Assembly: GCA_002811645.1 (NCBI GenBank)
Contig: PDIP01000105.1
Location: 94,573 to 158,572, forward strand
Source: Corallochytrium limacisporum Hawaii
Taxonomy: Eukaryota > Protista > Pluriformea
Direction: 5' to 3'
DNA: 64,000 bases
Notes under the pieces: model-generated
Told to the model about the DNA's origin: nothing
Database searches by the model: none
Seen by the model: only the letters and a program-made list of their open reading frames with translations
Shown here: one piece after another, positions 2,184-59,701 of the stretch
How the letters are laid out: each line of letters starts with the position of its first letter
Position numbering within the stretch: position 1 is the stretch's first letter
Translations under genes and position numbers: made by a program

Positions 2184-3558
2184 GTTTATCTGCTGTTTAT
2201 GAACATGAAATAAGTATGGGTGCCTGGCTATGATTCAAATGTGCGACCACCATGATCATTCAAATAAGTTTCTAGTTCTTTGGCAGCGACGAGCCCCGTA
2301 CTATGATGAAAATCATCAATAACGCGGACGGTAGCCAGTCTCAGTCGTCTTCGCACTCGAGACCAACACACCAACAACGAAGCTCTAAACAGAGAACATG
2401 AAAAAAAAGAAAGGCTCAGACTTCATCCGATTTCCCGCTGTTACTCTTATTGTTTCCCGTCCCGCTGCCTCCGTCCCATTCGTCCGCATCGCCTGCAATT
2501 CTATTGCGAACCACAGCATCCGGCGCTGTACCCTGCACCCACAGAGCGGAAACACCTCAAGCTCTGGGCCTACCGATACCTTCACTCAATACTTTCATTA
2601 TCGCACATTCTGTCGTTTCGGTCGAATCAGCGCGCGTGGGTCACAGGGGTTGCTCGCAATTGCCGGAAACTGGCTTTTGTGTTTAGTCACAGGTTGCTGT
2701 TGGTCGCACCCTACGCTCTTGTGAACGAGCTATCACCACCCATGCATTCAAAACCTATGGCCACTAGTACGCCGTCTGCGGAAGGCTGACAACTTTTGTT
2801 TATGGTCGGTCGGAAGCAAACGAAAAGGCGTGACCGTTCCACATCCAAGCTTTGGTGTGTGAGGCATGACCCTGGACGTGGAATCTCACCATACAACAAA
2901 ACAACAACTGGTCCTCCATAGAAAACAATTGGGTTTCAGTAGGGCCATATTTGTATTTTTCCTAATCTTGTGATTGCACCGAGAACCCAGGGCGTGTCCA
3001 GCGGAAAAGATTTGATCTCAACGTATCATCACTTGCTGAAATCCAGGGGAAGGACTCCATCGGATGGGGGGTGGGCGGCTGTCCGTTCTGCCGCTGACAC
3101 TCGTGAACGCATGACTACTGTACGCAATACTCGGCACAGCACGAACCACCTATCCTGCGCATTCGGATTTCCGCCCTTAACGGAAGCGCTTTAAACAGAA
3201 ATCATTGTCAGATAGCATGTGCTTTCCGATATCCCGCCCGGGAATATCTATGTACGGGGGGTTTTAAACTCGCTCGCCAGTGGCTGGCTCGCTACGGGCA
3301 GGAGCGGCCCAAAGCAGACGAGATCCACGCGGGTTTGGATGAGGCGAAAAGAGTTTGCTACTCTTGCCTAGCAGGACTAACGGGTGAAAATGGTTATAAT
3401 GCAACACCAGTTGTAATGTTGGAAGCACGTTAACTATACATTTTCTCAGTGGTATTTTAAGGGTGCAGTCAGACGTCAAGGCCGAGTGCAGTAGCGGCAT
3501 CTCTTTGGAGGCAGGAAGTGCCTCCCCGTGGCAGGGATGCCAGGTTCAAGGTGACAAT

Positions 3559-3636
3559 GTAAGTACAATCTATTTATTCGGTTCCTGGCATTTCAAGGAT
3601 GATTACTTTACCATGCTAATATTGACGTTCTTACAG
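3559..3636 (+). other. Predicted spliceosomal intron (78 nt) in a non-coding or leader transcript
   Basis: GTAAGT donor at 3559, GCTAAT branch at 3615-3620, TTCTTACAG acceptor ending 3636. Confidence 0.65.
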
Positions 3637-3668
3637 GACGGTGGAAATGTTACTTTGACATTCTCTGA

Positions 3669-3738
3669 GCAAGTGTCAAGCCGTACTCAATCTTTCGTCT
3701 TTCTCCTGAATCTGTTTCTAACGTATCCGCATCTTTAG
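3669..3738 (+). other. Predicted GC-AG intron (70 nt)
   Basis: GCAAGT donor at 3669, CTAAC branch at 3718-3722, CATCTTTAG acceptor ending 3738. Confidence 0.5.
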
Positions 3739-4217
3739 TCTATCTATTTAACACAACAGTCTTGAAAAGAGATCATCATGGTTCCACTTTGCGGTGCATC
3801 TTGAGGTGATAGTTTTGGAATATCGAAAGCGCCAATGGGGACTCATTGTGAGTTCTTGTAACAGTAGGCCCTCACAGTGCATAATATAATCAATATTACT
3901 TATTCTTCCATACTAAGATAGAATATATTGATTAATAATCCTGGTCCATCCCCGCTCTTTGCTTCCCTGTATTTCGGATATGTACACACACATTCTCAAC
4001 TGTGCCTCCACCAAGAAAATTCTGCGAGGTTGTTTTCGGACGGGATCTCCGCGGTTCCCCCCCCCCTCTTCTTGTGCCGCGTACTTCGGGGCTCCGCGAG
4101 GACCGTGCGACGAAGATCGTGTTGGCACGACCGGCTACTTAATGTGGAGGCGAATATGAATCTAACCGCCTTGTGTGCAGTCTTTCATGACGACGACAAT
4201 CAGAGCGACAACAATAT

Positions 4218-4289
4218 GTAAGTTTATGACTGAAAACGAGATGGTCTTTGCGGAGACTTTCGCTCGCTGTTGACAAGGAATATATTCAG
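4218..4289 (+). other. Predicted 5'UTR intron of TM9SF1 (72 nt)
   Basis: GTAAGT donor at 4218, TTGAC branch-like site near 4270, TATTCAG acceptor ending one base before A-ATG (ATG at 4291). Confidence 0.6.
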
Positions 4290-4290
4290 A

Positions 4291-6045
4291 ATGCTGAAGC
4301 AATACTTTGTGGGATCGCTCACAGCCTTTGCAGCTGTGGCTGCCCAGGGAGTGTACCAGACAAATGACTTAGTACCAGTGTATGTTAACTCGGTTGGTCC
4401 ATTTTTCAACCCGGCGGAGACGTACCTGTACTACAGCTTACCGTTCTGCCAGCCCGATGACATCGAGAAGGTCAGCGCCGGTCTTGCAGGGAATCTCGCT
4501 GGCGATCGTGTCCGCAGTAGTGGTTTCCAGCTCAACTTTGGCAAAAACGAAGATAACAAGGTATTATGCACTGCACGGCTGACCAAGGCAGACATAAATA
4601 AGTTCATCCACGCTATCGAGGAATTGTACAACTTTGAGATATTAGTAGATGGGTTGATTGCGCAGGAATTTGTGGGATATCTCGAGGAGCAGGCCTTCCC
4701 TCATGCGCATCATACATCGCTTTATACTCACACAGATTTCACTATTGGGTACAATGGCAACCAAGTAATCGATGTCACCGTAACGATGAGGGATCTGGAG
4801 GAACTATTCCCGGAAACAGAGGAACTTAGACTAAAGTTCACTTACTCGGTGACGTGGCAGGCTAAGCCACTTAGTGAAAGCCAGCGTGACAAGCAAGTAC
4901 ACAACCAAGACATGTTTCCTCGGACTCTTGAAGTGCACTGGCTGTCAGTTATTAATTCAATCATGTTGGTTGCACTTCTAACGGGGTGCGTATCGATCAT
5001 TTTGTTGCGGATCCTTAAGCAGGATATTGCACGATACAACCGGATGGGCGATGAAGAGGATTTTGGCCTTCCAGGCACCGAAGAGTACGGTTGGAAGCTA
5101 ATTCATGGTGATGTGTTTCGGTTTCCGGAATTCAAGCGTCCTCTGTGTGCCATTGTTGGTGCAGGCAGCCAGTTTATCGCGCTTGCGATCTTCATCATGG
5201 TGCTGGCAATTCTGGACATTTTCAATGTGCATCGTCATGGAGCGTTAAATGCGGCAGCAGTGGTCTTGTATGCCATGTCTTCGTGCGTAGCAGGATATAT
5301 ATCAGGTTTCTTGTACAAACAAATGGGAGGAGACAAGTGGGTGTCCAACGCCTTGCTCACGGCGTCAGTTTTTGTCGGTCCGTTCCTGACCATCTGGTCG
5401 ATTATGAATTCTGTGGCGTGGTCTTACGGATCCACTCAGGCCATTCCATTGGGTACTGCAATTGGCCTGGCATTTCTCTGGGTCTTTGTTGGTTTTCCGG
5501 GCTGTATTGTCGGGTCCGTCCTTGGTAAGAACCGGGCAAATCCTATGGACGTGCCAAGCCGTACGAAGATGATCCCTCGAGAGATTCCTGCCACCCACTG
5601 GCTGCGAAGCTGGCCTTTGCTCTCTGTGCTTGGTGGGATTCTTCCCTTCTGTGCGATCTGCATTGAGCTGTACTACGTCTTTGCAACAGTCTTTGGGCGC
5701 CAACCGTACACTCTGTTTGGTATTTTGCTGATTGTGTTCGTGATTCTCATGTGTGTGACAGCGTGCATGACCATTATGCTAATCTACTTCCAGCTGTCCG
5801 CGGAGGACTATCGCTGGTGGTGGAACTCTGTTTGGTACTCTGGCAGCACATCGCTCTTCATCTTCCTGTACGGTGTATACTATTTCGAAGAACGGTCTAG
5901 CATGAGCGGTGTAGTCCAAACCACGGACTTCTTTGGCAATCTGATCATCGGATGTTACATCTTTTTCCTTATGCTTGGCACCGTCGGCTTCTTTAGTGCT
6001 TTTGTCTTTGTGCGATACATTTACAGCACACTGAAGACCGACTGA
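4291..6045 (+). CDS. TM9SF1: Transmembrane 9 superfamily (nonaspanin) member, TM9SF1-like
   Basis: Signal peptide, YVNSVGPFFNPAETYLYYSLPFC, FPRTLEVHWLSVINS, GWKLIHGDVFRFP, HRHGALN, EDYRWWW and C-terminal KTD Golgi-retention motif. The first ATG is 4291; the ORF-track start at 4270 is TTG. Confidence 0.92.
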   Translation: MLKQYFVGSLTAFAAVAAQGVYQTNDLVPVYVNSVGPFFNPAETYLYYSLPFCQPDDIEKVSAGLAGNLAGDRVRSSGFQLNFGKNEDNKVLCTARLTKADINKFIHAIEELYNFEILVDGLIAQEFVGYLEEQAFPHAHHTSLYTHTDFTIGYNGNQVIDVTVTMRDLEELFPETEELRLKFTYSVTWQAKPLSESQRDKQVHNQDMFPRTLEVHWLSVINSIMLVALLTGCVSIILLRILKQDIARYNRMGDEEDFGLPGTEEYGWKLIHGDVFRFPEFKRPLCAIVGAGSQFIALAIFIMVLAILDIFNVHRHGALNAAAVVLYAMSSCVAGYISGFLYKQMGGDKWVSNALLTASVFVGPFLTIWSIMNSVAWSYGSTQAIPLGTAIGLAFLWVFVGFPGCIVGSVLGKNRANPMDVPSRTKMIPREIPATHWLRSWPLLSVLGGILPFCAICIELYYVFATVFGRQPYTLFGILLIVFVILMCVTACMTIMLIYFQLSAEDYRWWWNSVWYSGSTSLFIFLYGVYYFEERSSMSGVVQTTDFFGNLIIGCYIFFLMLGTVGFFSAFVFVRYIYSTLKTD

Positions 6046-6446
6046 TCTAATTGCTGTTACAGTTGACCTTTCTTGGTATGATGATGTTACGAATAGAAGG
6101 CATATTTAGTGTAACTGCGTTAATGATGAGGCCCAATCTTTCCACGGTTATCGAGATTGCTGTGTATTAAAATGGTGTGCCCAAATTGACTGAGTCGACC
6201 TCAAGTCAATGACTATTGAGTTCAACGTAAACATCAAGAATGAAAGCTTTTGAATCGTTTATTCAGTTTAAGTTTGTAGGTACAAAGTCAATGTTTCTTT
6301 TGAAGAGGCGCTTTCTCTGTTTTAGGAGCTGTATGATTCTTCCTCGACAGACGCTTATACAGAGATGATGATTATGCTTGGTGATCTAAACACAAATGAT
6401 GTCATGTTGTTATATGGGCTGTTTCAGATGAATACATTTGTTTTGT

Positions 6447-12528: not shown

Positions 12529-12975
12529 TGTTGATGATCTAGCTATCTACTATGGTCCAAGAGATCTGGGTGCTTGCCTTACTTCATTCTCCAGTTCCTG
12601 GTAAACTTCCTTGCGCTCACTCAAGGTAAGAGTTAACACAAACGTGTATGCCTGTAATGTGTATTCAATGCCTGAAACACCAAAAAGAGTCTACATGCCA
12701 CTTGCCGCCCTCATCTACATCTGTCTGGAGGGGTGAACAATGTCCGGGTTTCGTGCCGCTTGTTTTGGCACTCCACCCCCCCCTTTGTTTTGCCATTCCC
12801 ATCCTGCCACTTCCCCCCACCCCACCGGGAGGCTGTCCTGCGCAGACTGGCTTTTTCGGTGAGTTATTTTCACATACGGAATATTTTTTAATTCCAAAAT
12901 ATTGATTATTCGTCACAATGGAGTTTCTTTATAGACTTTTGCATTGTACCCTATGGGATGATGTGCCCGGTCTTG

Positions 12976-14229
12976 TCACGACCGGGCCGAAGAGATCCAT
13001 GATCCGATGATGCGGTTGTCATGCAGAGTGATAAGGTGATGACCGTCATCGGACAGGTTTGCGGATGTCAAGGGGCCAGTGAACGCGTTTTCGCCTTGAC
13101 TGTCCAGTTTGGTAACGTAGCGCAACCCACCATCGTGTGTACCGACCTCGAACACATTTATGCAGAGGGAGTCCTCGTGAATGGAGCCAGTGACCAAAAT
13201 CCCCAAAGTCTCATTGTAAGCTGGCCACAGATCGTACACTGAGGTTTCTGCCTTTCCCAGGCCTCTATACTGTTGGGTAATTTGCGGCTGCTTCATTCTG
13301 GCGTCGCTACTGATATCGAGTTCATTAATGTCACCGCATCGTTTCAATGGTCCGTTGGTTGTCAGAATACGACCAGACCGGGTGATCTGCATCCAGTCTG
13401 CTGGAGACCGTGGCTGATCGCTGCCCTTTGGCGTGATCCAAATAACTTCTGTTGCTTCCACGTCCATAGGGGGTTCCGGTTTGCCATCCGGACACTTGGG
13501 CGGCTTAGGCAAATCAATCATGCTGATTGCATAGTCAGGCTCGGCCTCGCCGCAATACACCCGGTACTTGTGTTCGGGGCGGGGATCCCAGCACACATAG
13601 AACATATTGCCCCCGCCAAACTCATAGTGTTTCACGAAGGAATAGCTGTTGGCGCCCTTCGAGGATGTGATGCTGGTAATGCTGAGGATGTGGACGCGCC
13701 AGTCTTCACCTGCACAGGCCAGCACGCCCGGATCGGTAGGGTGGAACGCGACATGGGCCAGGGCAGTCTCTTCCTTTGTGACATGATGAGCAGCCACAAT
13801 GCCTCCATGGATGTCGTGCAAACGAATAATGTATAGGTAGCCACCGTCACCTCCCGCAATCAGAACCGGTTCCGTTTTTTGTCCTCTAGTGTTTCCGATC
13901 TTGCCAAACGCAAGGGTTCTAATCTTTTCATTGCCCGTGTTTTGTACCATGACTTCCTTCATCATGCCCTCACTGGTGACTTCAATCAACCAAACTCCTG
14001 CAGAGGTTGCCAAAGCGACAAGCTCATCAGAGCCGGGTCTTAATGCATTGGGGGCAACCTCTGTCCGGTATACAACAATCGAGGCCTCTCCCGAAGCAGA
14101 CAGATCATGACGAAGTTCTACTCTATGCCTCAGTTTGTAGGCATAGTCGTCGGCCGAGCGCGCGGCCGTTGCCTTTGCAGGAGTCTTTGATCGGCTCCGG
14201 TTCGACACCTTTCTCGTACTTCCTGGCAT
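12976..14229 (-). CDS. WD40 protein, LRWD1(ORCA)/EED-like propeller
   Basis: NEKIRTLAF...VLIAGGDGGYLYII...LAHVAFHPTDPGVLACAGEDWRVHI resembles LRWD1/EED blades. The first in-frame ATG is 14229; the ORF-track start is TTG. Confidence 0.55.
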   Translation of the reverse strand: MPGSTRKVSNRSRSKTPAKATAARSADDYAYKLRHRVELRHDLSASGEASIVVYRTEVAPNALRPGSDELVALATSAGVWLIEVTSEGMMKEVMVQNTGNEKIRTLAFGKIGNTRGQKTEPVLIAGGDGGYLYIIRLHDIHGGIVAAHHVTKEETALAHVAFHPTDPGVLACAGEDWRVHILSITSITSSKGANSYSFVKHYEFGGGNMFYVCWDPRPEHKYRVYCGEAEPDYAISMIDLPKPPKCPDGKPEPPMDVEATEVIWITPKGSDQPRSPADWMQITRSGRILTTNGPLKRCGDINELDISSDARMKQPQITQQYRGLGKAETSVYDLWPAYNETLGILVTGSIHEDSLCINVFEVGTHDGGLRYVTKLDSQGENAFTGPLTSANLSDDGHHLITLHDNRIIGSWISSARS

Positions 14230-43847: not shown

Positions 43848-44077
43848 NNNNNNNNNNNNNNNNNNNNNNNNNNNNNNNNNNNNNNNNNNNNNNNNNNNNN
43901 NNNNNNNNNNNNNNNNNNNNNNNNNNNNNNNNNNNNNNNNNNNNNNNNNNNNNNNNNNNNNNNNNNNNNNNNNNNNNNNNNNNNNNNNNNNNNNNNNNNN
44001 NNNNNNNNNNNNNNNNNNNNNNNNNNNNNNNNNNNNNNNNNNNNNNNNNNNNNNNNNNNNNNNNNNNNNNNNNNNNN
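43848..44077. other. Assembly gap in the CPSF6/PSMC1 divergent intergenic
   Basis: N run, C8 on the left, G5C6 on the right. Confidence 0.99.
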
Positions 44078-44443
44078 GGGGGCCCCCCGCGCCTAATTTC
44101 CTTCCGGAAGCCAACGGGAACAGAAGCGAAGGAGGGGAAGGGAAGGGAAGGGGGGGGGTTGGTGGGGGAGGCCCCGGTTTCCGAAGGCACCGCGCTGGCT
44201 AAAGGACAACAGTGCAAAGACTTCACAGGGATTGTCCGCCGAATCTCAAGAGACAGAAGCCAGGCCACAGCAGCGATACACAAGCGGGCCTGCTTGCGAA
44301 ATATTATACAGAAGAAGGACATAGCAATTATATCAGAATAGCTATTTTAGGGATCCTTTGTACACCGGAGAATGGCACAACACGAAGTATAGATCACGTA
44401 CGTACACAGTAGACCGGGTTCCCTGTATTTCTGTTTTGGAAAT

Positions 44444-45772
44444 ATGGGCAATGCACGTTCCGGTCAAGGCCAGCCTGGTGGGCAAGGCCAGGGTGATGGT
44501 AAGAAGAAACAAGAGAAGAAAAAGTTTGAGGCGCCACCTCCCACGCGCATCGGTAAGGGCAAGAAGAAGAAGGGACCTGACGCAGCACACAAGTTGCCCG
44601 ATGTGCTTCCCCACACACGGTGTCGTCTGAAGAAACTCAAATTGGATAGAATCAAAGATTATCTGCTTATGGAGGAGGAATTTATTCAAAATCAGGAACG
44701 GCTCAAACCCCAGGAGGAGAAGAGCCAAGAGGAGCGTCAAAAGGTTGAAGAATTGCGCGGCACCCCGATGGGCATCGGTACCCTCGAAGAAATCATCGAC
44801 GACAACCATGCTATCGTTAGCTCAAGCGTGGGTCCGGAGTACTATGTGACGATTATGTCCTTCGTAGATAAGGATCAATTGGAACCAGGATGCTCCATTC
44901 TGCTGCATAATAAGGTTCTCTCTGTGGTCGGCGTGCTCGGTGACGACGCAGATCCTATGGTCAGTGTTATGAAACTAGAGAAAGCCCCTCAAGAGAGCTA
45001 CGCGGACGTCGGTGGTCTGGAACAACAGATCCAAGAAATCAAGGAGAGTGTAGAGCTGCCCCTGACACACCCTGAATTATATGAAGAAATGGGCATTAGG
45101 CCGCCCAAGGGCGTGATTCTTTACGGTGAACCGGGAACTGGTAAGACCCTGCTGGCCAAGGCTGTGGCCAACCAAACCTCTGCCACTTTCTTGCGTGTGG
45201 TAGGGTCAGAATTAATTCAAAAGTACCTCGGTGACGGTCCCAAATTGGTTCGTGAATTATTCCGTGTGGCCGAAGAACATGCGCCTTCCATTGTGTTTAT
45301 TGATGAGATTGACGCGGTCGGTACGAAGCGCTACGATTCAAACAGTGGTGGCGAGAAAGAAATTCAACGTACTATGTTGGAGTTGCTGAATCAATTGGAT
45401 GGTTTCGATTCCCGTGGTGACGTGAAGGTCATCATGGCCACAAACCGGATAGAAACATTGGACCCTGCTCTGATTCGTCCCGGTCGCATTGACCGCAAGA
45501 TTGAGTTCCCTCTACCGGACGAGAAGACCAAGCGCCGTATCTTCCAGATTCACACCTCTCGCATGACCCTGGCGGAGGATGTGGACCTAGAACAATTCAT
45601 CATGGCCAAGGATGATCTTAGTGGTGCGGATATCAAAGCTATCTGCACCGAGGCTGGTCTCATGGCTCTGCGTGAGCGCCGTATGCGAGTGACCAATGAG
45701 GACTTCCAGAAGTCTAAGGAGAATGTGCTGTACCGCAAGAACGAGGGCACTCCCGAGGGACTGTATGTGTAA
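44444..45772 (+). CDS. PSMC1: 26S proteasome AAA ATPase Rpt2
   Basis: MG N-terminus, [41 protein letters not shown]-terminal TPEGLYV. Confidence 0.98.
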
Positions 45773-46231
45773 ACTCGTAGCAAATGCGCCTTTACTTTCT
45801 GTTTTCTTTCTTGTATGAGGAACGCTAAACGTGAAAACTAGGCTACATTGCAATAAATGTGTGCTCGACAAAGAGTAATAGAACCCATGTTGTCTGATTT
45901 GATTCGTGGCCGGCTCCGGCCAACCGCTGTACCCTCCTTGTCCTCAACAGCTCGCCTGCGGAGCAAAGGGGGGGGGGACTGATATAGTTCCCTCCACCTA
46001 TGTCCGAGGACTTGGGAGGGGTGACTGAGGTATGGCCCAAGCCTGCCAGGTGCCACGAGAGTCCACCACCTCACCTCGGTTTGCTGTGAAAACGGAGTTA
46101 AGGAGTCATCCAATACAGTGGGTACAAAAGATTCATCAAAGAACCAAATGGTTTGACCATAACATAGTATGACACAAAATTTTGCCCTTAGTACCATTTC
46201 TATTCGAGCCTAAACATTCAAGACAAGTTTT

Positions 46232-46681
46232 ATGTATGGGATTTTGAGACGGATCGGTGGTTGCCCGGGGACGTGCACCGCAACATACCGAGGCGTTAGA
46301 CTCCTTTCACTAACGCACACTACAGCACAAGCAGATAGAAAGCACTCTAGTACGGCGGTAGAACTTGACGAGAAATTGATGAATCGTGTGTACGAACTAG
46401 CACTCCTGCCGAAACCCGACACACCGGAAAGACTAGCTGCAGACAAGAAGTCCATCCAGGAAATCTTGCAATTCGTTGAAGTGTTGCAGCAGGTGGATAC
46501 AAATGGTGTTGAACCAATGACCAATCCACTGGAATTGTATGGTTCAAACGTCAACGCACTGCAACAGGGCTCAGATGACTTTGTTAAGGATGGCGATGTA
46601 ATGCCGAGGTCTACTCTAATGGGCCAGAGTCGTTTCGCCCGCGACGAGTACTACCAATATCCACAGGGAGCGAAAGAGTAG
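46232..46681 (+). CDS. GATC: Mitochondrial Glu-tRNA(Gln) amidotransferase subunit C
   Basis: Presequence-like N-terminus; ELALL...EILQFVEVLQQVDTNGVEPM motif. Confidence 0.8.
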   Translation: MYGILRRIGGCPGTCTATYRGVRLLSLTHTTAQADRKHSSTAVELDEKLMNRVYELALLPKPDTPERLAADKKSIQEILQFVEVLQQVDTNGVEPMTNPLELYGSNVNALQQGSDDFVKDGDVMPRSTLMGQSRFARDEYYQYPQGAKE

Positions 46682-47096
46682 ATGTCTCTGCTGGCGGAGA
46701 CCATGTTGGAAACAAAAGTACAAACTTGCGACGGAAGTCAAAGACAAAGTATAAAAGTGTTCGTTGTCTGTAATAGATAACGATGACATGCCAATTTCAT
46801 GTTTTATTAAACTAGTGCGCAGAATGAATGATGTGTGAAGCGAATGTGGTGATGAACATTATACACTACTGATGAATCATCTCATTTCATGCTAACCCTT
46901 TCACGAGTGAGGTCTGTTGATCAGTTTTGGGGGTCCCGTGGAATGAGAAGTACCCGGAAAATGTCATTTCATGCACCAAGTATTGCAGTTTTGTGTTTTG
47001 CGGGTCTCGTTCCAGTGCAGGAAACAACGGTTATACACTGCAGAACGCCCAGAACGAACCCAAAGTAATTATTTTCCCGTTTAGAAAGACTGCAAA

Positions 47097-47564
47097 TTAA
47101 ATACGGTTGAGCTTGTCGGCAATGACCTTGGGGTTGTTGGCGGCGACCTCTTCCCGGCCCATGGCCTTGTAGTCAAAGGAGCACTCGTGCTTATCAGAGT
47201 AGCGGTGCAGACCACAGTAAATGCCTTCGCAGCGGCACTTGAAGCCAGTCAAACCGACCTTCTTCTTGCATACTCCACAACGAGTGGGCTTCTTCTTCTG
47301 TGGTGTTTCAGTGACTTCGAGTGTGGAGACCTCGACGGTCTTGACTTCCTCGACAGGCTTAGTCTGGAGGACAGGAGCAGGGGTCTGTGCAACAGCAGGG
47401 GCAACGGCAGGTTGGCTAGTTTCTGCCTGCTGCTGCTTGTTCTTGATCTGTTCCTTGAAGCAAACGGAGCAGAAGTTGTCTGTTTCGGGCCGTCCGTGGA
47501 ACATGCATCCAGGCTTGGCGCACTGGCCAGGAGTGCTGTTGTTGATATCCTGGTGGGATTCCAT
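47097..47564 (-). CDS. A20/AN1 zinc-finger stress-associated protein (ZFAND5/6-like)
   Basis: A20 finger CAKPGCMFHG...FCSVC and AN1 finger RCGVCKKKVGLTGFKCRC...YCGLHRYSDKHECSFDYK. Confidence 0.95.
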   Translation of the reverse strand: MESHQDINNSTPGQCAKPGCMFHGRPETDNFCSVCFKEQIKNKQQQAETSQPAVAPAVAQTPAPVLQTKPVEEVKTVEVSTLEVTETPQKKKPTRCGVCKKKVGLTGFKCRCEGIYCGLHRYSDKHECSFDYKAMGREEVAANNPKVIADKLNRI

Positions 47565-47605
47565 GTTTGTTTTGTATTTCTTTACCTGTTTTCTCTTAAA
47601 CTTCC

Positions 47606-47928
47606 CTAAGTTAGCTCAAATAGGCACCCGGAGGTTTTCTTTCGCAAGTAGTCGCTTTGTTTGAATGTAAGTTTCGTGGTTGAGATGGCTGTAGACGTCG
47701 CTCACACTACAGATGTGCAAGTAGCGACCGTCAAGTACCACCAAAGGGATTGTGGGCGACGTGTCCGTTCTTGTTCTCATTGTTTGATACATAGGAACGG
47801 GTCTTATCGTTCTTCTTTCAGAAACTTTATTTATTTGCAGGCATGGCATTGACACAACGCACCAGTGAAACCCACAGAATTGCCAAGTCGTTCATTGTTC
47901 TTTCTCCCTTCTGTCGTCGCCCACTCAC
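47606..47928 (-). other. Predicted 5'UTR intron of ZFAND (323 nt)
   Basis: Minus strand: CTG|GTGAGT donor at 47928 and GCTAACTTAG branch-plus-acceptor ending 47606, 41 nt before the ATG. Confidence 0.5.
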
Positions 47929-48724
47929 CAGACCAGAGAGGCGCTCTATTCCCTTTCCCTTCGTCGTCGTTCGTACGCGTCTCCATTCACTGGCCCTTGA
48001 GAATGAATGGGCGTGTCTCGGCGTAGTTTCTAGAGGCACCTAAAAAGGAGAGTTCGAGAGCAAACGGGAAAAAAAAACTTGGCGGAAGTCAAGAAAAGTT
48101 GCAAGCTCGGACAAAACCCTTACGACCAGACTGAGCGGTGGGCTGGTTCGTTTACTATGAAATGCAACCTCCCGCGTTCTCGTCACCGGAGGGGGTTTTT
48201 TAAAATTCGGGAAGGGCCCTTCTTCGTATCTATTTAGTCGTCAGCCGTCAGTCTCTCTACGGGGTTTGCGGGCAGGGAAAAGAAGGGGGGAGGGGGAGCA
48301 GAAAAGTGGAAAATTTTTCTTCTTGTTTCGAATGCTCTCGAAACTCATCAATATTAAAGTGCTATATTGAAACTATTCAGATCTGGTGCACATTGACCTA
48401 AAACCCCCTAGAAAATGGAAGAATTTTCACTCCGTTTCACCTGGTTGGGACCGAACCGTGTGTCCTTGTTCCGCGAGGTTAAGTCTCTCGCGCAAGTTGC
48501 TGACCGGCCCCTGCAAGCAACACTTCTGCATCACTTCAAAGCTAGAAACAATCCAGTCAGCCAGCCGAGAGTACTCCCTCCTCCTCCCTTCTCTGCTCCC
48601 CTCCGTTCCCTTCTTGTTTGCGGCCCTCGCCCAAGCGGACGACACTCCCCTCGCTAATCTCCCTTCTCCCCCTGAAAATGGAAAGTGCAGCACGATCGGG
48701 GTAGGCAGTTAACGCGGAAGAGAA

Positions 48725-48845
48725 GAAGAGGGGGGGGGGAGTGAGGGGCAGAAATTTTTTTTCCTTTGAAGCAGAAAAGCACGCAAATGTCAAACTTCTC
48801 CCCCCTCCCTCCCCCCCCCCCCCCCCCCCCGGGGGCTCCCGCGGC
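48725..48845. promoter_or_regulatory. Poly(dG)/poly(dC) tract (G10; C20 followed by G5)
   Basis: Direct read; longest homopolymer in the window. Confidence 0.45.
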
Positions 48846-51800
48846 GGACGCGCCTCCCTTTCTCCCTCCCTGTCGGGACCAGTCCTCTTCGGACCATAGG
48901 CAGTCTGCACAGTTAATCTTCATCTCATTCTGACATGTATATTAAATGTATTGAGCTTCTCTCCCACACCCGAACACTCTATAAGGCTATATCTTGCCAC
49001 CTCCCCTCAATTGATCTGGGCTCGAACCCTACGATCACCCGAAACCAGCTGGCGATGGGTTACCTTCTTCCGTCCTTCTCTAATCATCTCCCTATGGACC
49101 TTCTTACACACTCACACCAGGCAAGATACGAAAAACTGTTCGTCAGTGCTGGGATACGCACTCACGGTTGGGTGGCGATGTGGCCGTCAGAACCTCTGCT
49201 GCTGCCAGTGCTCCTGACCTGAATTGGTCACACCGCCCTAGTACGCCAGTGTTGGTCCTGCTGAACTGGAGTCCAACGAGCGCGGACTTTTTCCCGTGAC
49301 TGTTCAGACTACTTTTTCTGGGCAGTTGTATTGCTATACCGAAGTCTACCCAGTCCATCCTTCCCGAATATTTGGCCTGTATGGACAAGAATGGTCACGA
49401 AACAAAACAAAACGTGCCAAATCTTAAATTGCTGTGTGTGGCACGAACCCAATTTTTTTCTCCCTCCCGAAAACTTGGTATGGGCTGACCGCGTTCATGC
49501 CCAGGCCATTGTTTCAGTAGGGGCATGGCGGTGTGCGGGTTGTAGCTCTGATCATGCCTTCCCTCGACAAGAGGGGGTGGGATGAACAGCTGTAGTTATA
49601 TGACCATCCGATTGCGATACCCGCCCCGCTCTTTGTTCGCAAATTTTTTAAACTTGGCAATGTGGACGTCGAACCAGTTTCCTTTACCAGACTTCTCTCA
49701 TCTATTTGGTGACACCGTCCAGTGATAATAGGTCTGATGGACAGGCTGATGTGGGATATGATAATAATATAAGGCAAAATTTGTAATTCTTGCGGGTATT
49801 TGGTCAATCCTCGCGGGGTGGGTTGCAGACAGCGCGTTCGCCCTGTGGAGACACTCCTTTTCTGTTCATTGGAAATCTTTGTTGTACAGCTGCACGCAGC
49901 AGCGTGAAAGGATTGTTCCTTGCCACGATCGATTTCTTCGGTAGTATTTTAAGAACCGAAGAAGAAGGGAGAAAAAGGGATTGGGAGAGGGGGGATTCCG
50001 ACCTGACCTCACCCACCACGAACTCGTGCGTTGGTTTCCTCGGCGCCGCGGTTTGGTACTCAATATATCCGTCCCAGGCGATGGCCATGTGCGTCCTTCA
50101 CTTTTCGAACGATTTCTCTCGTCTTTGTCTCCAATTTTACTTGCGTTGTCATTTCCTAGCGCGTTCCAAGATGGGTCGATCGGGCCTATTTGTTTAAGTA
50201 AAACAATGGGACCTACGTCCTGCTAGGCTTGCTTTGTTGAGCCTGTCATGGTCACACCCTTTCCAAACTACCCTTGCCACTATTAATGCCGACCTCCCAC
50301 ATAGTTTTCGGTGCACGTTTCCTGTCCGCCCGCCCAGCCAGAACACATCCGTTGAACCGCACGCCATCGAGCGAACAACCCGTGACGACGACCATATTTT
50401 TATATTGCTTCGTCGCTTCTTCTCCGATTTCTCGCCTGGCACAAGCGAGTTGGAGCGGGTATATGACGGTAGAGCGAAAAAGCTCCTCTCGTATTTTATC
50501 CACCCTCATGCGTTTTGTATACACTTGTGAAGCGCGTGTCCATTGCTTCCCATTTTGGGAGAGCCGTGGACGAAGGCAGCAACAGGGAGGAAAACGATTG
50601 GAAGCGGGAAAAAGACGGTATGAATATGCGGCAAAGAATATTTTTTGGTCGACTGTATCTGTAGCTGCCGGTGCCGTTTCCAAAGAACAGAGCCGGGAGA
50701 CTGGCCCTGGCCAGCGCGCCACTTACGTGTCGGAGTGTAAATTCTATAGTCAGGCGGTAGCGAATTATCGTCACTGATTCCTTGAACCACAGTTTAGAAA
50801 ACAAAGTGTTTGCTGTAGTGTAACACCCCTCCCCCTACCTTCCTTTGTGCCGCTCCTCCTGTCATGGACCATTGCTGTGCTGTCAGTAAACCTTGCTATG
50901 TTGGGGCTTCGGGGTCAGCGTTCTCCCGTCGTTCCCGGCTCACGGCACCTTCCTCGAATTCTCGAGTATTTTCTGGTGTTCTCCGCGCCCGCCCATTTTT
51001 TTTGTCTCCCATACCAACCGCTTACACGCAATGCTGGACAAGAAAATAGGCCCGCGGATGACAAAAAGGAGAAGAGTCAGAACGGAGCAGAGACAAAGGA
51101 ATTTTTGATGGACGGAGCGAAAAATCGAAAGGGACACCCCGGGGTTGCGAAAATGGCGATATCGGGGAGAGTCTTCAAATGCGGCTGGCAGCTCACCCAA
51201 GGTACAACGGCCACCCACAATGCAAACCACACACCACACCACTAGGTCGTCATTGTCTTCCAGTTTTTTTTCAGTCCTCCCGGCCTTCCCTGTTGCTTTT
51301 GTGTTCCAGGCCTCTTTTTCTCACTCTTTCACTCTGTCTCTCCATCTCCTGACGGTTTTTTTGGGGGGGGGGGGGCAACAACCTTTTTGACAACCAAGCC
51401 AAAACCTTTGCAGCCGCTCTCGTCATGGAAGCCCCTCCTTCCCAACCATGGCTCGTTGGCAGCCTCACCTCCTAAAGGATCTTTTTCTCATTCAAATTGT
51501 TACACGGAGCAAGATCTCTAGCCGTTCCTCTTCAGAAAAACAAGATCCAATGGCAACGGAACCCTACCAATAAAGAAATGGAGAACCCGTCCCCAGCAGC
51601 TGCCACCCTGTCTCGATCGACCGCCGTGCTAAAATGCCGTCCCGAACAGAACGTCCCTCGGGGTGCCTGTGGTTGCCTGAGTCTCCGTCGGGTGCGGTGG
51701 GTGTCGTTGAGAATACTAATTTATGATAAAGGGCCAGGAAAACCACACGTACATTTAGTATAGAGATTTCAACCTACAAGGCAGGCACAGAGGCCCCTTT

Positions 51801-54800
51801 CTCTCAGGACCGGACCTTCTGTGCTTTGTTCATGCCCCGACCAACCCCCGCACGGATCCAACCATACCCTTTTCCCCAGGTTGACCCCCCAGTGTGGCAA
51901 GCAAGATTCTTCCGAGGAGGCATTGGACACGGGTTCCAGACCCATTCATCTTCATAGTTACTTCACTGCACCTGTGAACACACTACGACACCCTTAGTGG
52001 GAGCGAACAACGACGCAGGTGACAACGACGAGTACGGTCTCCCTAAAGTTAATTGCCCCGTGCCACGGGCCTATTGCGCAAAACAGGTGGCTCATGATTT
52101 GCCAATTTTGCCTCGTCAGCAAAAGGAAAGGCCTCAGAAACGGTACAGTTTACCGGGACATACTATACATGGCCTATATATTGTGTCCATCCCCACTCAC
52201 CCCGATCCCCTTCTTTCATTCCGCTGAGAGCACGAATGATGGGCCAATGGAAAAGTAGGCATTTTCTGTGATTACACTATTGAAGGTGGCACATTCAATA
52301 GGAAAGTAACCTACTGGCGGCACCTCACCGACACCATCCTCAGAATCACTACCAGCAGCGGGCGGTAAGTCTCGTGGACGTCTCTACTGTTGTGATAAAA
52401 CTCCAATTGATTCAGCACCGGGTGCGGTACCGAGAGTGTGTGTGCTTTTTGACGTGGTCCGGTTCGGCTGCGGCTGTGAGCAACCATGTCCCCATTTCAT
52501 TACTTAAGTATGAATGAAAACGAAAGCACCAAAGTGAAATTCCACTGCAGAGCCCAGTAGGCTTCGGTTCAAGGAAACATTTCTCGGCACGAACAGGACT
52601 GGCAACATCAGAATCCTGAGGGTGAATTCTGCTGCAGGAGGGTGGGTGATATACCCAGATCGATGATTGTGGGTTACAGAAAGGCCTGGAGAGTGACGGG
52701 TTCTGTGAGGATGTCAGAAGGCCGCCAGGGGAGGAGAAGAAAGGGGAGGGGCGGCACCCGCCCGTGAATTAGGCAAAAACGATCAACTGGTTGACTATGG
52801 AAATATGGCCCGCATCGGCTAAATCCACTCCTTCGTCTGATGGAGGATCTGAATGAAATCTGAGAAAGCGATGAGCGGCGTACGTACATTTACTATCAAA
52901 GAGATTAAAGATAAGAGTGGTGGAAGATAGTGCAAGCGCGTAGAGAACACCCACGATCAGAGATTAGTCGCGTGAAATTAGCTGCTAATTCTACACCATA
53001 CTCATTCACTAGGATACCACTTCGTTGTCCTCACAATTCTATGACAGCAACACCCACAGACAATTGTAGCGGTCAAGGAACATAGCTACTTGGCACGCAC
53101 TGTGCTCACCGACAAGCATTTGGGGATTGTATGCAATTGGCTTAACGCCACACTAGTAACAGTCTTGAGAGCAGATACTGACACTCTGAGATAAAGCAGG
53201 ATACTGCTCAACCAAGAGGCTAACTGATGAAGGAACGTAGGACGAGGGGCAATGAAAACTAGAGAACCTCAGTTTGGTCAGAGAAGGGGTGATTGTGACC
53301 CCGCTCACCCCGCAGCAGCCAGTGCTGCGCTCGTTGTCCATCCCTGAGTCTTACTGCTAGGAATCGCCTGCCTGGATATGTCAAATTGAGCATACGGAAC
53401 ATAGGCTTTGGGAAGGAGACCCAATCGATTGGAGACACGAACAGTTTGGTGTCGGTGAGACATCGTCGTTTCCTTTTGGGTTGCTGTGAGAAGCCCGTGG
53501 AGAGTGGGAGTGACAGTGATACCCTCGGTTCCTTCCCTAAATACCGCGGCGCTACCGTGTATAGCTCGGAGCTCTGCTCCTTTCTCTTGCCCTGAATGGG
53601 TTGCAGCGGTGGTGGGGGTGGTGTGATCACCCCTTGTAGCCTGCTTTCCGGCATCGTCTCACACTAACAGCTGGGTCAAGTTCCTGTGGTAGGACGGTTC
53701 AAAGTGTACGTCTGTACCGTGATGTTATCGAGGAGCATGTCAACAAGAGCAATGCCAACTGGGAATGAATAGGACATTGGTTTGCACCACGAAAGTGAAC
53801 ATAACAGGAGCGGTCCCTCCACCGCCAATCGAATGGTGGTGATGTGTACGATGATCAAAAGTAGAAACTGTCTACGCTTAGAATCATCCGCCCGTCCTCA
53901 CCCAAGCTCACTGTGGTCAAGAGGCATGGCCAGAGGGCGCACTTAAATCACTTACAATAAGCCTCGGTTGTTTGTTTGCATGTATGTCTCCCAGCATCGA
54001 ATTCTCTCCTTCCAGAGCAACACAGCACCACCCCAGCAACAACCGCACGCACAAATCACAACAGATGCTAGACAAATATCTCTCGTCCTCTACAACAGTA
54101 TTGTCTCATAGATACAACAGCACTCGTGACGGCCTACCTGACCACATCCCAAGCTTTGCATGATTCACTTGCATCTTGTGATGCTGCTGGCATGTTACAT
54201 GTCGCGACCTTCTTTTGGGATTGCTTCGGGTACTCCTTATAAAGTGATAGGCTTGCTTTGGAGGGAAGCGGGGTGGGGGGCCTTTATCTCCTCTTCTACT
54301 TCTTTCTATCTCAGTGGCCTTCTTTCCTTTTCATTTCCAAATCCGGCCTTTCGATGATGAACCAATGAAACCGAAAGAGCAAAGAGATTCAAGGGGTAAA
54401 AGCAAATGAAAGGAGACGGAAACAAAATTTGAAGAATCAAAACAGGAACGAACAAGAAGCAAAATAAACAAAGGAAAGAGGGAAGAGAAACCCACAGCAG
54501 CGGGGGCGGAAGAAGATGCCTTCCGACCAGGGGACCAGGCTACGTGCTTGACATGCTTGACCATGTCCAGGTACTGGTGCCCCATTTCAAGCACCATCAT
54601 ACAGCGTATCCGTTCCATAGTCGTATATGCGCTGGTGGGGTTACGCCCTTGATCTCGGCATGATGCTGAAGATGGAATGTCGTCAGCTCCGGTTCTGTGC
54701 CTGCCGCAGGCGGCATCCGTCTACAATTGTCTAGCTCGGTCGAACAGCTGGTTGTCCATTCCTCTCTCTGCAGAAGATCTCCCTTACTAGCAATGGACAC

Positions 54801-57800
54801 GGGCTAGTGGACAGGATCTTGCGGATCGGACATGGGCACCCATAGATCATTACACACTAAACTGCCAGTTCAGCCCGCCTTCAACAACATGCCGACCATG
54901 AACTTCTTGGAGATGTCCGATCATCCTGAGGAGTTCCCGATGGTGATGGTGAGCTTCTGACTGGGACGAAGGTGCGATGCCTAAGTGTGCTTTCCAGCAC
55001 GGTAGTTTTCCAGGACGATACTTCCGATCAAGGATCACGATCACGCCTCGCTTCCCTGCGTGAAGGCTTTCGATAAGGTCGACTGCCTTGTCAACGCTTA
55101 TTCACTAACAGGCTGCTTCGCGAGCGGTGGGGACCAGCCTAGCCTGGCAAAAATTCTGTGGATCGTCCCCACGGGCACCCCGCTCCCGTCTCCCCCCTCC
55201 AGCGCCGAACATACATAAAAAAAGGAACATTTCTTGTGTGATATACACCGCAAAGACCCATAGCCGTGAACTATTCTGTCCACAAAGATGTTGCGTATTG
55301 TCATTGCGTCGTTTGAGGGTCACCATCATTGTCGTCATGGCCTGTGCTTTTCACCACCAATCTATATTGCTCAAATTCGTCCTCGGACATCATCAACTTA
55401 AACACGTCCACATGAGTCACCGGGTCGTTGCCGGGTCCCGTGCGACCTCTTCGGTCAAGCTCATTGCCTTTTGTTTGCGCAATGTTCGTCATTTGACGAC
55501 GACTTCAAGTTTATTTCTGTTTCTCTCCGATGGCTCTATCTGCTTGCTCTCGTGCGTCCCTTAATTGCAGTACTCAATCATATGCCCTCGCTCCTAAGGG
55601 ATTGGGAGTGAGGCAGAAGAGAAGAGAAGAGAAGGGGGAGGGGGGCCGACGAACGGTCGGGTCGATCAGACCAGGGAATCAGGAACGTTTCGTTCTTCTC
55701 AGCGCCTGTTCCGTTTTGTACCACTCGTGCCCAAAAGCAAACAGTACATCACACCTCTCCGATCGCAGAAAAGGTGGGTCAAACCACTGGGTTGCAGTCA
55801 CCGCATTTTGTCCGAGCGCATGCGTCCCTCCACACCAATGCGGATCGAGTCCGCACCCAGTTTCAGTAGAAAATGTTCGAAGGTTCATTGCACAATTCTG
55901 GGAAAGGGGACAAATCCAAGAAGAAAATGTGGCTGACGTTGGGGTTGGCAGGGGACGCAGATATCCACCCACCATCGTAGAAAGGTGTGACTGAGTCTGC
56001 GCTATGCGGATTCATCACCAATCAGACCCTCAGACCCTCATAACATCAACGCAACACAATGAACGGTGGCTGTCAGCATCATCATAGGCTCCGCTACCGT
56101 ACATGGTAGTTCATAGCAGTACGCGATCGTGGCTGCCTTAAAACCTTTGCTAAGATGCGTGCGATGCATGAGGAGAATGGCAGGTTCCTCAATTTGGTAG
56201 ACAGTTAGAGATATTTGGAACCCCAGTCGGTCCCAAAAATCGTCAATCCCGGCAAACAGCAAGCAGGAAGCTGGTCATACTAAGCAGAGCTGAGACGATG
56301 CTCATGTGAGTGAGCATCAATTGTGCGTGTTTACGGAATTGGAGATACCATTCACAGGCGATGTCGAAAGAGATGCTTACTCATATGGTGGGTGTGAAAC
56401 AGCGCCCAAACCTTCATCATCATTCGCTAGTCATCGAGATATTCACACCAACAAGTATATTCGACCCCACCACATCCGGTCTATACATGGACATACACCT
56501 AGAGCATCATGCAGGTTCATAGTATGTCAGATAATGTATGGGGTGCATGTATGCACTTGCCGGAACGGGGGGCGTGTCCAAGAGTGACTAAAGTGCGTCC
56601 ATGATGATGATTTCCCAGTAGGCTGTCCCGTCCGAATTTCAAAGCAATAGGTCACACGTACCGTAATCCACCTTCAACCTGTGCTTGCTCACCCACCCAC
56701 CCACACAGATGACTGTCTCATTCTCACCAATGTGATCGGCTCAACAAACGACTTTGGGAACTGTAGACAGCCTGATCACACAAACATACCGGGAGACACG
56801 TTGGCACCATACGCTTGACATGGTGCCCATCATGGTGAACCTTTATCTCGAAGCCAGTAGCATCCCCTTTCGACTCTCAAATCAAACACCCAGTGCCTGA
56901 TCAGCAGATGCATTGGATGTTCAGCGCACGGCACCTGATGGATGACCCCTGGGTCCATTCAAGGGAGAGCCTACAGCCATGCCCCTCTCATGCCATACCA
57001 ATGCTACTGTCGCCAAAACCTAAAGAAGACAAGGAGGAAAAAACCCACGAGCCATGGGTCCCGTGCACAGAGAGTGAGAGAGGTTCATTACTAACTCCCA
57101 GCTCCCTCCTAACTTTCTTCCTTCCTTGTGGGGTAAGGCGTCTGCCTTATTTTGTTGGTGCCATCTTTTTTTCTTTTTGTTTTCCTTTTTTCCCAGTGCC
57201 CGACCAGCATTTGGCATACAAACACACCCTCTCTCTTCTTTTGACACCGGGCATACTGCTGCGCCATTCTTTCGACGATTCCAGAAAGTACGGATCCAAA
57301 GGGAAAATGCTGGGGCAGGCAATGTATTCCATATCGAAACCATTAATTAGCTTCTGGGGGCGTTGCTTGCATCGTGGTTGATGGTTGTGACCTGACATCA
57401 GGGCTGTGGCCCGTTACCTTAATTATACCTCTCCGCGTCTGGCCCTCCTCCCAATCTGCATACTAGATTAATGTATAGTTTACACAACAATTTTTGATTT
57501 TCTTACTTGCTTGGACATCAGAGCGGTATCGGTGTGCTGGGTGTGACCTTTCGTTGACATTGTCGATTCCTTACCCCGCACCATGTTGTTTGACCTCGTG
57601 CCCATGAACCGTACGATGAAGGTAGGCTTAACTCATTACCGTTGGCGTCGCAATTCTGTTTTGTTGTGTATATGTCAGGTGTTCGATCTCTCTCACTCGC
57701 TCCGTGTCTCTCTCGCACGCTCTCTTGTGGTCGGTTTGTGCCGTTTCGCTATCCGCGTCTACCTCGTATTCCGACTCAGTCACTAGCCCTACATTGGTAT

Positions 57801-59119
57801 CGCCACAGGGAAGGGGTACATCAAGCAAGGCACACGAATCAATGCAGACTGGTCACGCAAAAGATAAAAAGCAGGTGAGACCTGAACTGTGGTGGACGGC
57901 ATATTTAAACAATGAACAAAAAAATTGAAACCATGAACAGCCAGGAGAGACAAAAGGGTGGCGACAGCAGTAACAACATCATCACAAGGAAAAGCGAAAA
58001 GAAAAAAGTTTTCGGGCCCCGCTTACTTTTTTGCTCGTGTTTTATTCGCTCCCTCCTGACTGCGGGTCCTTGATGTTTGGTATTTATTTACAACAAAATC
58101 TCTCCGCCGTTCGCGGTTCCTCGTGGAGCTGCAGCATAGAAAGAGGAAAAAAACAGTTATGGCGATCGCAAAGCGCGCACGCACGTCCCTGCTTCTCTTC
58201 TCCCTCCCCCGGGGTCTCCGCCGCACCGGGGGTTTTACCATGTGTTTCAACCCCGAAATAAGGCAGTTTTCATCTCCAGAGCGTCGATCGATTGCTGCTC
58301 CTACTCCTGCCAGTTTTTGAATTGTTCATAAGTTTATGATAAATATATTGAATCTTGTCCAGAGCGCTTGGACCTAGCTCCCCGATCGTCTTCCTTCTGC
58401 GTGAGGGAATGTGATCTCATCGCATTCTTCCTCATCCCGCAGGAGCGGACGAGGACGGAGAGGGCACGTTCCTGAATCCTACATATACCAACACCGTCCC
58501 AGGTGATCTCAGTATCCAGTGTACAAGAGTTGTTATTCAGAGTATAGATCAATTAACTACCTATCGATGCTGGCGCCGATGCGCCACAAGACTGCCAGTA
58601 AAACGCGGCAGAGCCAGGTCCCACTCGCAGGTAGAATTCCATTATTTCACTACCGAATTTGATGATCGCTGGGCCGTGAGTCCAAACGACCCATCTCTTA
58701 CCCCTTTTCCCTTCCCTCTCACTCTCTCTCTCACTCACCAGTGCGTGTGCTGCCGCTGAGTTCTCCCCGATCGTGGCACTCTTGGCCTCCCCCCCCCCTT
58801 CACCCCGGTTGACAGCGTGGCACTCTCTTAGTTTCAGTACATTTATTACGGGTCAGAAAATTTTTTCTTCTGCGCCCGCTCTAAAGTTTCTCGATCTACC
58901 GCCGACTATCTAATCAGTGAATTCTGGTGTGTCGGACATAAAATGAAAATGAATAAACCGAGCAAGGATAGCAATTGCCAGTCTATGCCCGAGCACTCCT
59001 TGCTGCACCGACTGGGGCGGAAGAGGAGGAATGGGAAGGGGCGACGGGGAAGGGGGAGAGAGATCGAAGCCCTGTGTGCAACACACACCAAGAAACCCCC
59101 TACGAAAGTGAGAAATTGA

Positions 59120-59670: not shown

Positions 59671-59701
<31 letters not shown>

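What the first reader, a model, noticed from the sequence alone, without database searches (positions are those of the whole stretch)
3384..4289. Chain of 4-5 uniformly sized short introns with a micro-exon and no ORF upstream of TM9SF1
Seen on the + strand: 3559-3636 (78 nt, GTAAGT/GCTAAT/TTACAG), 3669-3738 (70 nt, GC-AG with CTAAC), 3848-3917 or 3921 (GTGAGT donor, 70-74 nt), 4218-4289 (72 nt), and possibly 3384-3449 (GTTAAC...TTTCTCAG). The exon 3637-3668 is only 32 nt. The frames I traced through the first junctions hit stops quickly. Inference: either a heavily spliced 5'UTR or a separate intron-dense non-coding RNA in a genome whose coding genes have no introns. The C10 tract at 4057 lies inside this chain, suggesting two transcription starts.
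Basis: partly seen in the sequence, partly recalled or inferred. Interest (0 to 1): 0.7.

Follow-up and report, generated by a model that had tools for sequence, protein, structure and literature searches.

The report
Intron-borne snoRNA with three guide boxes
What looked like a chain of tiny introns is likely a small non-coding gene whose spliced-out intron carries a ribosomal-RNA methylation guide of the old snR53 family, a known arrangement, with the oddity that this guide carries three predicted targeting units instead of the usual two.

Summary
All motifs are at the stated coordinates, but the micro-exon and the GC-AG intron are misread parts of a box C/D snoRNA. The 'branch point' GCTAAT is the conserved snR53/snoR53Y guide (18S/U6). 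The 3636 acceptor lies in the D'-C' hairpin, the micro-exon holds a 14-nt 28S guide plus box D, and the 'GC donor' is the 3' arm of a 14-bp terminal stem. RNA contigs of two runs both start exactly 30 nt before donor 3559, and one ends 30 nt after acceptor 3917: assembly-graph fork signatures, not junction reads. They argue against acceptor 3636 and show no sign of splicing at 4218-4289. The unit is likely a separate non-coding snoRNA host upstream of the TM9-family gene's promoter, in a near intron-less holozoan (likely Corallochytrium). The oddity is a second exact CUGA box 41 nt downstream, whose guide targets the same LSU adenosine as the D guide of Neurospora snR53/CD11 (1 of 200,000 shuffles). 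No small-RNA, junction or methylation data; no homologous locus found. New variant of a known kind.

The parts
3529..3558 (+). 3' end of short first exon of the host transcript (its 5' end is not mapped; contigs do not cover upstream of 3529)
   Evidence: both RNA contigs begin at 3529, 30 nt before the donor
3559..3564 (+). 5' splice site GTAAGT of the snoRNA-bearing intron
   Evidence: 8 of 9 consensus; fork signature in 2 of 2 runs; the only donor-like ends among 43 contig ends
3579..3594 (+). 5' arm of snoRNA terminal stem
   Evidence: 14 bp, -13.0 kcal/mol with 3669-3683
3596..3602 (+). box C (AGGATGA, one mismatch to RUGAUGA)
   Evidence: aligned to box C of Rfam snoR53Y and snoU6-53
   Evidence: 10/10 pairs with L004 SSU, A at position -5; same guide as Rfam consensus; U6 target string from PMC2780460 supplement 4
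3626..3640 (+).
   Evidence: fold
3641..3647 (+). degenerate box C' (GTGGAAA), inferred
   Evidence: position directly after the hairpin; sequence
   Evidence: 14 pairs (1 GU) in 8 fetched LSU fragments, which were fetched with that motif; 0 of 3000 shuffles; 2 of 487 CTGA in the window reach 14; offset 12
3669..3683 (+).
3693..3709 (+). guide 3 (12 nt, 2 GU) + second box D (CTGA 3706-3709); predicted target: same LSU A as Neurospora CD11 D guide (26S-Am356)
   Evidence: pairs in 3 LSU fragments; same register as CD11; 1 of 200,000 shuffles
3718..3738 (+). branch-like CTAAC (A 3721) and acceptor TTTAG; near 3' splice site, use inferred
   Evidence: sequence; D box 1 ends 53 nt before the branch A; not visible in the contigs
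3739..3847 (+). optional middle exon (109 nt) or part of one 359-nt intron; no second snoRNA found
   Evidence: contigs cannot decide
3848..3917 (+). donor GTGAGT (use inferred) and acceptor TAAG 3917
   Evidence: X2 contig ends at 3947 = 3917+30; no YTRAY branch motif within 45 nt
3918..3985 (+). last exon of host; 3' end approximate
   Evidence: X1 contig ends at 3985
4057..4066 (.). C10 tract, likely in the promoter of the TM9-family gene
   Evidence: 13 of 25 such tracts lie 234-460 nt upstream of an ORF start; X2 TM9 contig starts 4098
4218..4289 (+). possible 5'UTR intron of the TM9-family gene, not supported
   Evidence: both runs' contigs cross it unbroken
4291..6045 (+). intronless EMP70/TM9SF-family gene (584 aa); neighbour, not part of the unit
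   Evidence: Pfam PF02990 E 1e-157; subfamily TM9SF1 not tested

Best explanation
The stretch from about 3500 to 3985 is likely a small non-coding snoRNA host gene whose intron, starting at 3559, carries a box C/D snoRNA of the snR53/snoR53Y family (about 3590-3672) that would be released by splicing and trimming and is predicted to guide 2'-O-methylation of 18S rRNA, U6 snRNA and 28S rRNA. Shown by sequence and calls: boxes C, D' and D, guides in register with their targets, the internal hairpin, the 14-bp terminal stem, and transcription of 3529-3985. Inferred: splicing at 3559 and 3917 (from contig ends), use of 3738 and 3848, + strand, release from the lariat, and the methylations. The short exons are likely disposable, and the intron is likely kept in a near intron-less genome because snoRNA maturation depends on it. 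A second CUGA box at 3706 with its own guide lies just outside the terminal stem; it is likely functional, most simply through a longer minor form that pairs box C with this second box D. The TM9-family gene is likely transcribed separately from a promoter near the C10 tract.
For: Rfam snoR53Y (E 0.048 on 171 nt, 22.1 bits) and snoU6-53 align over box C, guide and D'. Guide 1 pairs 10/10 with SSU and guide 2 pairs 14 nt with LSU, each in the -5 register. The C box at 3596-3602 gives the only C..D pairs among 139 in the window with both guides of 10 or more. Guide 2: 0 of 3000 shuffles; guide 3: 1 of 200,000. Terminal stem -13.0 vs -3.2 kcal/mol for the second box. D box 1 ends 53 nt before the branch A, near the ~50 nt optimum quoted in PMC8162545 (passages). 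Contigs of 2 of 2 runs start at donor-30; no other of 43 contig ends is donor-like. The host contig is separate from the TM9 contig in both runs. Neurospora CD11 is itself intronic, and non-coding hosts are common in fungi (PMC2780460 passages; PMC3596301 section 5).
Against: Rfam scores are far below gathering (22.1 vs 43 bits) and the gathering scan of the window is empty. No junction was seen directly; the splice evidence rests on recalled behaviour of k=31 assembly graphs. X1 runs on past 3947 to 3985, so 3917 has support in 1 of 2 runs, and 1 other of 43 ends shows a chance AG. The contigs are unspliced throughout, so intron-retaining RNA is abundant. Targets are rRNAs of other eukaryotes, not this organism. 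The guide-2 site is not among the mapped Nm sites of Arabidopsis or the Neurospora predictions. Box C has a U-to-G change. PMC10234308 reports most expressed human snoRNAs lie 100 nt or more from the branch point, so the 53-nt distance is weak evidence. No homologous locus was found.
Confidence: 0.78

Rival explanations
1. The snoRNA is real but its host is a long alternative 5'UTR of the TM9-family mRNA, spliced from 3558 to an acceptor at 4180 or 4289.
For: Same strand, 300 nt apart; a good acceptor-like CTAAC..TGCAG at 4162-4180; a gap between contigs proves nothing (caveat).
Against: Host and TM9 contigs are separate in both runs; neither TM9 contig breaks at 4290 or starts at 4181 or with a loose end; a C10 tract sits at the usual promoter distance from the TM9 ATG.
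Confidence: 0.1
2. The snoRNA is cut from a mostly unspliced, independently transcribed precursor by nucleases, as in budding-yeast clusters, and splicing is a minor side path.
For: Both runs hold continuous unspliced contigs over 3529-3947; a long terminal stem could support splicing-independent processing (PMC10234308 passage).
Against: A fork at the donor survives in both assemblies, so the spliced form is not rare; donor and branch/acceptor motifs are strong and placed at the usual distance.
Confidence: 0.06
3. One reading: 78-nt intron, 32-nt micro-exon, 70-nt GC-AG intron and further short introns are each spliced out of a non-coding RNA.
For: Motifs are present; CTAAT..TTACAG looks like a fair acceptor; donors are over-represented (41 of 5000 shuffles).
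Against: A 3558-3637 junction would share the G and put the contig start at 3530; both start at 3529. The 'branch point' is a conserved guide, the acceptor lies in a hairpin, the GC donor scores 5 of 9 and is a stem arm. Such splicing would cut the snoRNA in three.
Confidence: 0.06

Closest known systems
snR53 / snoR53Y family (Rfam RF01279; Neurospora CD11, fungal family CD_11) and mammalian mgU6-53 (RF00377)
   Same: Box C, short spacer, guide CCAUGCUA.U and D' box; 18S target (yeast A796, Arabidopsis A801) and U6 target (PMC5824354 section 27; PMC8053127 tables). Guide 3 plus CUGA is in the same register on the same LSU adenosine as the CD11 D guide. CD11 is intronic.
   Different: An extra module (hairpin, C'-like box, 14-nt LSU guide, exact CUGA) sits between D' and the CD11-type D guide and is closed by a strong terminal stem, leaving the CD11-type guide outside. 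The CD11 D target was reported only for Pezizomycotina, Taphrina and Yarrowia. Score is below Rfam gathering.
Non-coding snoRNA host genes (UHG/gas5 type; fungal intronic snoRNA clusters I-III)
   Same: Short, ORF-less exons around snoRNA-bearing introns (PMC2780460 passages; PMC3596301 section 5).
   Different: Only one snoRNA found here; organism is a near intron-less holozoan rather than a fungus or animal.
snoRNA-bearing introns kept in intron-poor fungi (RPL7/snR59, NOG2/snR191)
   Same: Intron retained around a snoRNA in a genome that lost most introns (PMC8476143 abstract and passages).
   Different: Host here is likely non-coding. Non-coding cases in Candida (Mitrovich et al. 2010) are recalled, not read.
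SNORD86 in NOP56 (two-conformation snoRNA tied to splice choice)
   Same: Only an analogy for the novel case: alternative folds of an intronic C/D RNA linked to splice-site use (PMC11028025 passages).
   Different: No evidence here for autoregulation; here the alternatives would swap D boxes and targets.

Membership tests
box C/D snoRNA | box C (RUGAUGA) near 5' end and box D (CUGA) near 3' end, 60-120 nt apart | tested here: met
   AGGATGA 3596-3602 (1 mismatch), CTGA 3665-3668
box C/D snoRNA | terminal stem closing the C/D motif | tested here: met
   14 bp, -13.0 kcal/mol
box C/D snoRNA | 10-21 nt antisense element directly 5' of D or D', target base paired at -5 | tested here: met
   10, 14 and 12 nt guides against fetched rRNA of other eukaryotes; shuffles
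box C/D snoRNA | internal D'/C' motif | tested here: inconclusive
   D' TTGA is clear; C' GTGGAAA is degenerate, placed by the hairpin
box C/D snoRNA | stable small RNA bound by fibrillarin/Nop58/Snu13 and directing 2'-O-methylation | not testable with these tools
   only assembled contigs of two runs were available
snR53/snoR53Y family | D' guide for the 18S A796-type site (and U6) | tested here: met
snR53/snoR53Y family | Rfam gathering score for RF01279 (43 bits) | tested here: not met
   22.1 bits; filed as a divergent relative by guide identity, not as an Rfam member
snR53/snoR53Y family | fungal D guide for LSU A356/359 | tested here: met
   present, but at a second D box outside the terminal stem
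intronic snoRNA / non-coding host gene | snoRNA lies wholly between a used donor and a used acceptor | tested here: inconclusive
   contig-end signatures at 3559 (2 of 2 runs) and 3917 (1 of 2); no junction read
intronic snoRNA / non-coding host gene | exons lack coding potential | tested here: met
   longest ATG frames of the unspliced region 59 and 41 aa, no Pfam hit; spliced forms not translated
GC-AG intron / micro-exon chain | strong consensus around the GC donor and use of acceptor 3636 | tested here: not met
   5 of 9 consensus; contigs start at 3529, not 3530
box H/ACA snoRNA (3844-3940) | two hairpins with pockets, H box, ACA box | tested here: inconclusive
   two hairpins and an ANANNA, but 36-nt first hairpin, tiny pockets, no ACA, straddles acceptor 3917; no Rfam hit

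The most novel reading that the evidence does not exclude
One snoRNA gene yields two RNAs that share box C but end at different D boxes: a short form (to 3668) aimed at an LSU uridine and a long form (to 3709) aimed at the ancestral CD11-type LSU adenosine. The choice would be set by competing helices (the post-D1 arm pairs either with the 5' flank or with guide 2) and possibly by which 3' splice site is used: with 3738 the second box is only 12 nt from the branch point, with 3917 it is free. That would be a three-guide snoRNA whose target set is switched by alternative D-box use, and it would date the A356-type guide to the opisthokont ancestor.
Probability: 0.22. Interest if true: 0.7.

Novelty: new variant of a known kind. 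Interest (0 to 1): 0.42.

Why it matters
The basic arrangement is known from fungi and animals. It is a further, independent case of a lineage that lost nearly all coding introns yet likely keeps splicing for a snoRNA host, which bears on why such genomes keep a spliceosome; the organism can be transfected (recalled), so this is testable. The three guide-box units with two exact D boxes are the unusual part. If both D boxes are used, this shows how a guide RNA can gain a target without losing the old one. A library search for snoRNA plus Corallochytrium found 0 papers, and two searches for three-guide snoRNAs found 0; these are narrow phrase searches of an open-access library and do not prove absence.

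Tried and rejected
No own genome was held, so the organism's rRNA, U6 and other introns could not be searched. No listed run is on record as RNA; I treat X1 and X2 as RNA because their contigs stop at gene ends and leave intergenic gaps. The lack of cover at 2255-3451 is not used as evidence. The metagenome scan for both guides in order gave 1 hit, L022, which lies in phage-like coding DNA with no C/D Rfam match at the site: chance. The U6 motif scan of viral contigs gave 0. Of 18 genome-contig loci only part are rRNA; 8 were scanned with Rfam and 2 held eukaryotic rRNA. tRNA: none. No 90-nt window on + in 2200-4330 folds better than z -2.6. The 15-nt LSU complement at 3448-3462 has no box in register. 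A possible second C/D RNA at 3336-3390 has a box C-like GGATGA but no CUGA. An H/ACA RNA at 3844-3940, U14-like similarity at 3770-3800 (compared by eye), telomerase RNA (no template seen) and spliced-leader RNA (no matching loose ends at mRNA 5' ends) were considered and dropped. The other strong CTGA guide in the window (19212, 16 nt) is antisense to a coding gene and is taken as chance. A paper search for the guide-2 target string returned 7 unrelated papers. In one search, 9 of 24 laid records were not shown, so the 43 contig ends tested come from the 23 records listed.

Full report
Setting. The window is gene-dense with long uninterrupted ORFs. The finding lies between adenylate kinase (1503-2183, -) and an EMP70/TM9SF-family gene (4291-6045, +). 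The three proteins looked up are held only by EukProt, each alone in its cluster. The best named single-domain kinase hits are labelled Colp12 (71%) and Nk52 (67%); that these labels mean Syssomonas and Chromosphaera is recalled. A 22-protein tree places the kinase on the non-fungal side, outside the animal clade, without a well-supported sister. Corallochytrium limacisporum is reported at 0.0 introns per kb of coding sequence (PMC5560861, passages), so it is the likely organism (inference, about 0.85). No genome was available.

Observation check. Three GT[AG]AGT donors in 906 nt are reached by 41 of 5000 shuffles. GCAAGT occurs 41 times in the window and the 3669 site fits the donor consensus at 5 of 9 positions, against 8 of 9 for 3559. 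There is no credible ORF.

A box C/D snoRNA. Rfam gave weak but coherent hits at 3589-3650 to snoR53Y and snoU6-53 (22.1 bits, gathering 43). They align box C (AGGATGA, 3596-3602), the guide CCATGCTAAT and box D' (TTGA, 3622-3625). It pairs 10 of 10 with eukaryotic SSU rRNA of locus L004, with an A at position -5, and with the U6 string printed for Neurospora CD11 (PMC2780460 supplement 4). In Arabidopsis SnoR53Y is assigned to 18S A801 and U6 A48 (PMC8053127, passages and section 12); in fungi snR53 is assigned to 18S-796 and predicted on U6 (PMC5824354 section 27). This guide pairs with conserved LSU sequence in the -5 register. I recognised the target from memory and fetched the LSU loci with that motif, so their number is no test; the tests are 0 of 3000 shuffles and 2 of 487 CTGA boxes in the window reaching 14 pairs. 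Among 139 C..D pairs on both strands, only the two that start at this C box have both guides of 10 or more. The predicted LSU uridine lies 12 nt 3' of the Cm2159/Cm2198-type cytidine, that is about U2210 in Arabidopsis; it is not in the Arabidopsis Nm table nor among the Neurospora predictions, so it would be lineage-specific or the guide may not methylate.

The third unit. A second exact CTGA at 3706-3709 has a 12-nt guide (2 GU) to the LSU sequence GGGAAAGATGAAA of 3 fetched fragments. The adenosine at -5 is the one targeted by the D guide of Neurospora CD11, the snR53 homologue (supplements 1 and 4), a target predicted across Pezizomycotina, Taphrina and Yarrowia. In 200,000 shuffles of 3669-3738, 1 gave such a guide for that site and 8 reached 10 pairs. 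The site was chosen after seeing the match, but it is the family's own known D target; allowing for some 70 listed sites still leaves about 4 in 10,000. This box has no terminal stem (-3.2 kcal/mol) and is 12 nt from the 3721 branch A. The post-D1 arm can pair with guide 2 (-8.6) about as well as with the near 5' flank (-7.6), though the full terminal stem is stronger. How guide 3 is used is not shown. A longer form using box C with the second D box is the simplest route; a relic is possible but should have decayed.

RNA evidence. Two runs, kept as contigs and only guessed to be RNA, behave as RNA: contigs follow genes and stop in intergenic DNA. One matches the window exactly, the other differs at scattered letters. 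Both have a separate contig over the locus, 3529-3985 and 3529-3947, colinear with the genome. In a k=31 assembly graph (recalled) a path leaving a fork starts 30 nt before it and a path entering a merge ends 30 nt after it. 3529 is 30 nt before donor 3559 and 3947 is 30 nt after acceptor 3917. Of 43 contig ends tested, the only 2 donor-like ones are these, and 2 have an AG at the merge position, one of them 3917. A junction to 3637 would share the G and shift the start to 3530, so 3636 is not the main partner of 3559. The contigs cannot tell one 359-nt intron from two (3559-3738, 3848-3917), because short junction paths are pruned once short end exons are removed (recalled assembler behaviour). 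No joint was displayed anywhere, so there is no positive control for the signature in this genome. The TM9 contigs (4211-6101, 4098-6183) cross 4218-4289 unbroken; contigs drop rare forms, so minor splicing there is not excluded. Contigs give no strand.

Mechanism. Likely: a short transcript starts within about 150 nt upstream of 3558, is spliced at 3559, and the intron is debranched and trimmed to the protein-protected C/D core. With acceptor 3738 the first D box is 53 nt from the branch A, close to the ~50 nt optimum cited in PMC8162545 (passages), though PMC10234308 finds most expressed human snoRNAs farther away (passages). The TM9-family gene likely has its own promoter: 13 of 25 C/G tracts lie 234-460 nt before an ORF start, this one at 234.

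Comparison and novelty. Intronic C/D snoRNAs in ORF-less hosts are standard in fungi and animals, and snoRNA introns persist in intron-poor fungi (PMC8476143). By guide identity this is a divergent snR53/snoR53Y relative; it fails the Rfam threshold. New are the lineage (0 papers for snoRNA plus Corallochytrium) and the three guide-box units (0 papers in two phrase searches). Papers were seen as passages or named sections only; PMC2780460 supplements 1 and 4 were read whole; PMC3511168 gave no passage, and PMC8583080 and PMC12645875 were seen as passages. The supplements of PMC5824354 were not opened and may list the guide-2 site. No homologous locus was found: the single metagenome hit is chance phage-like DNA. 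Verdict: observation partly confirmed, interpretation partly supported, new variant of a known kind, interest 0.42.

Noticed in passing
window 12859-12934 (+): AT-rich 76-nt stretch GTGAGT..TTATAG just downstream of a C-tract promoter region, facing the 3' end of the minus-strand gene at 12976-14229; looks like a real short intron of a divergent non-coding transcript. No listed contig spans it.
   Followed up: partly
window 3844-3934 (+): Two hairpins: a 9-bp stem that hides donor 3848 and a 10-bp AT-rich stem spanning acceptor 3917; could modulate use of the second intron.
   Followed up: partly
window 3496-3541 (+): GC-rich two-part hairpin in the presumed first exon; z -1.1, not significant.
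   Followed up: partly
   Followed up: partly
window 4216-4243 (+): Upstream ATGs (4216 start-stop, 4226, 4241) overlap or lie inside the unsupported 72-nt intron; splicing would remove all three.
   Followed up: no
window 3256-3268 and 48191-48204 (+): G-run, T-run, AAA motif occurs twice in the window, both intergenic; the first may mark the host promoter.
   Followed up: no
window 47600-60300: About 12.7 kb with no ATG ORF over 185 aa, unusual in this gene-dense window (44000-55900 read).
   Followed up: no
L004, L011 and others: Prokaryote genome records carrying eukaryotic rDNA contigs; L004 has two group I introns called by Rfam.
   Followed up: no
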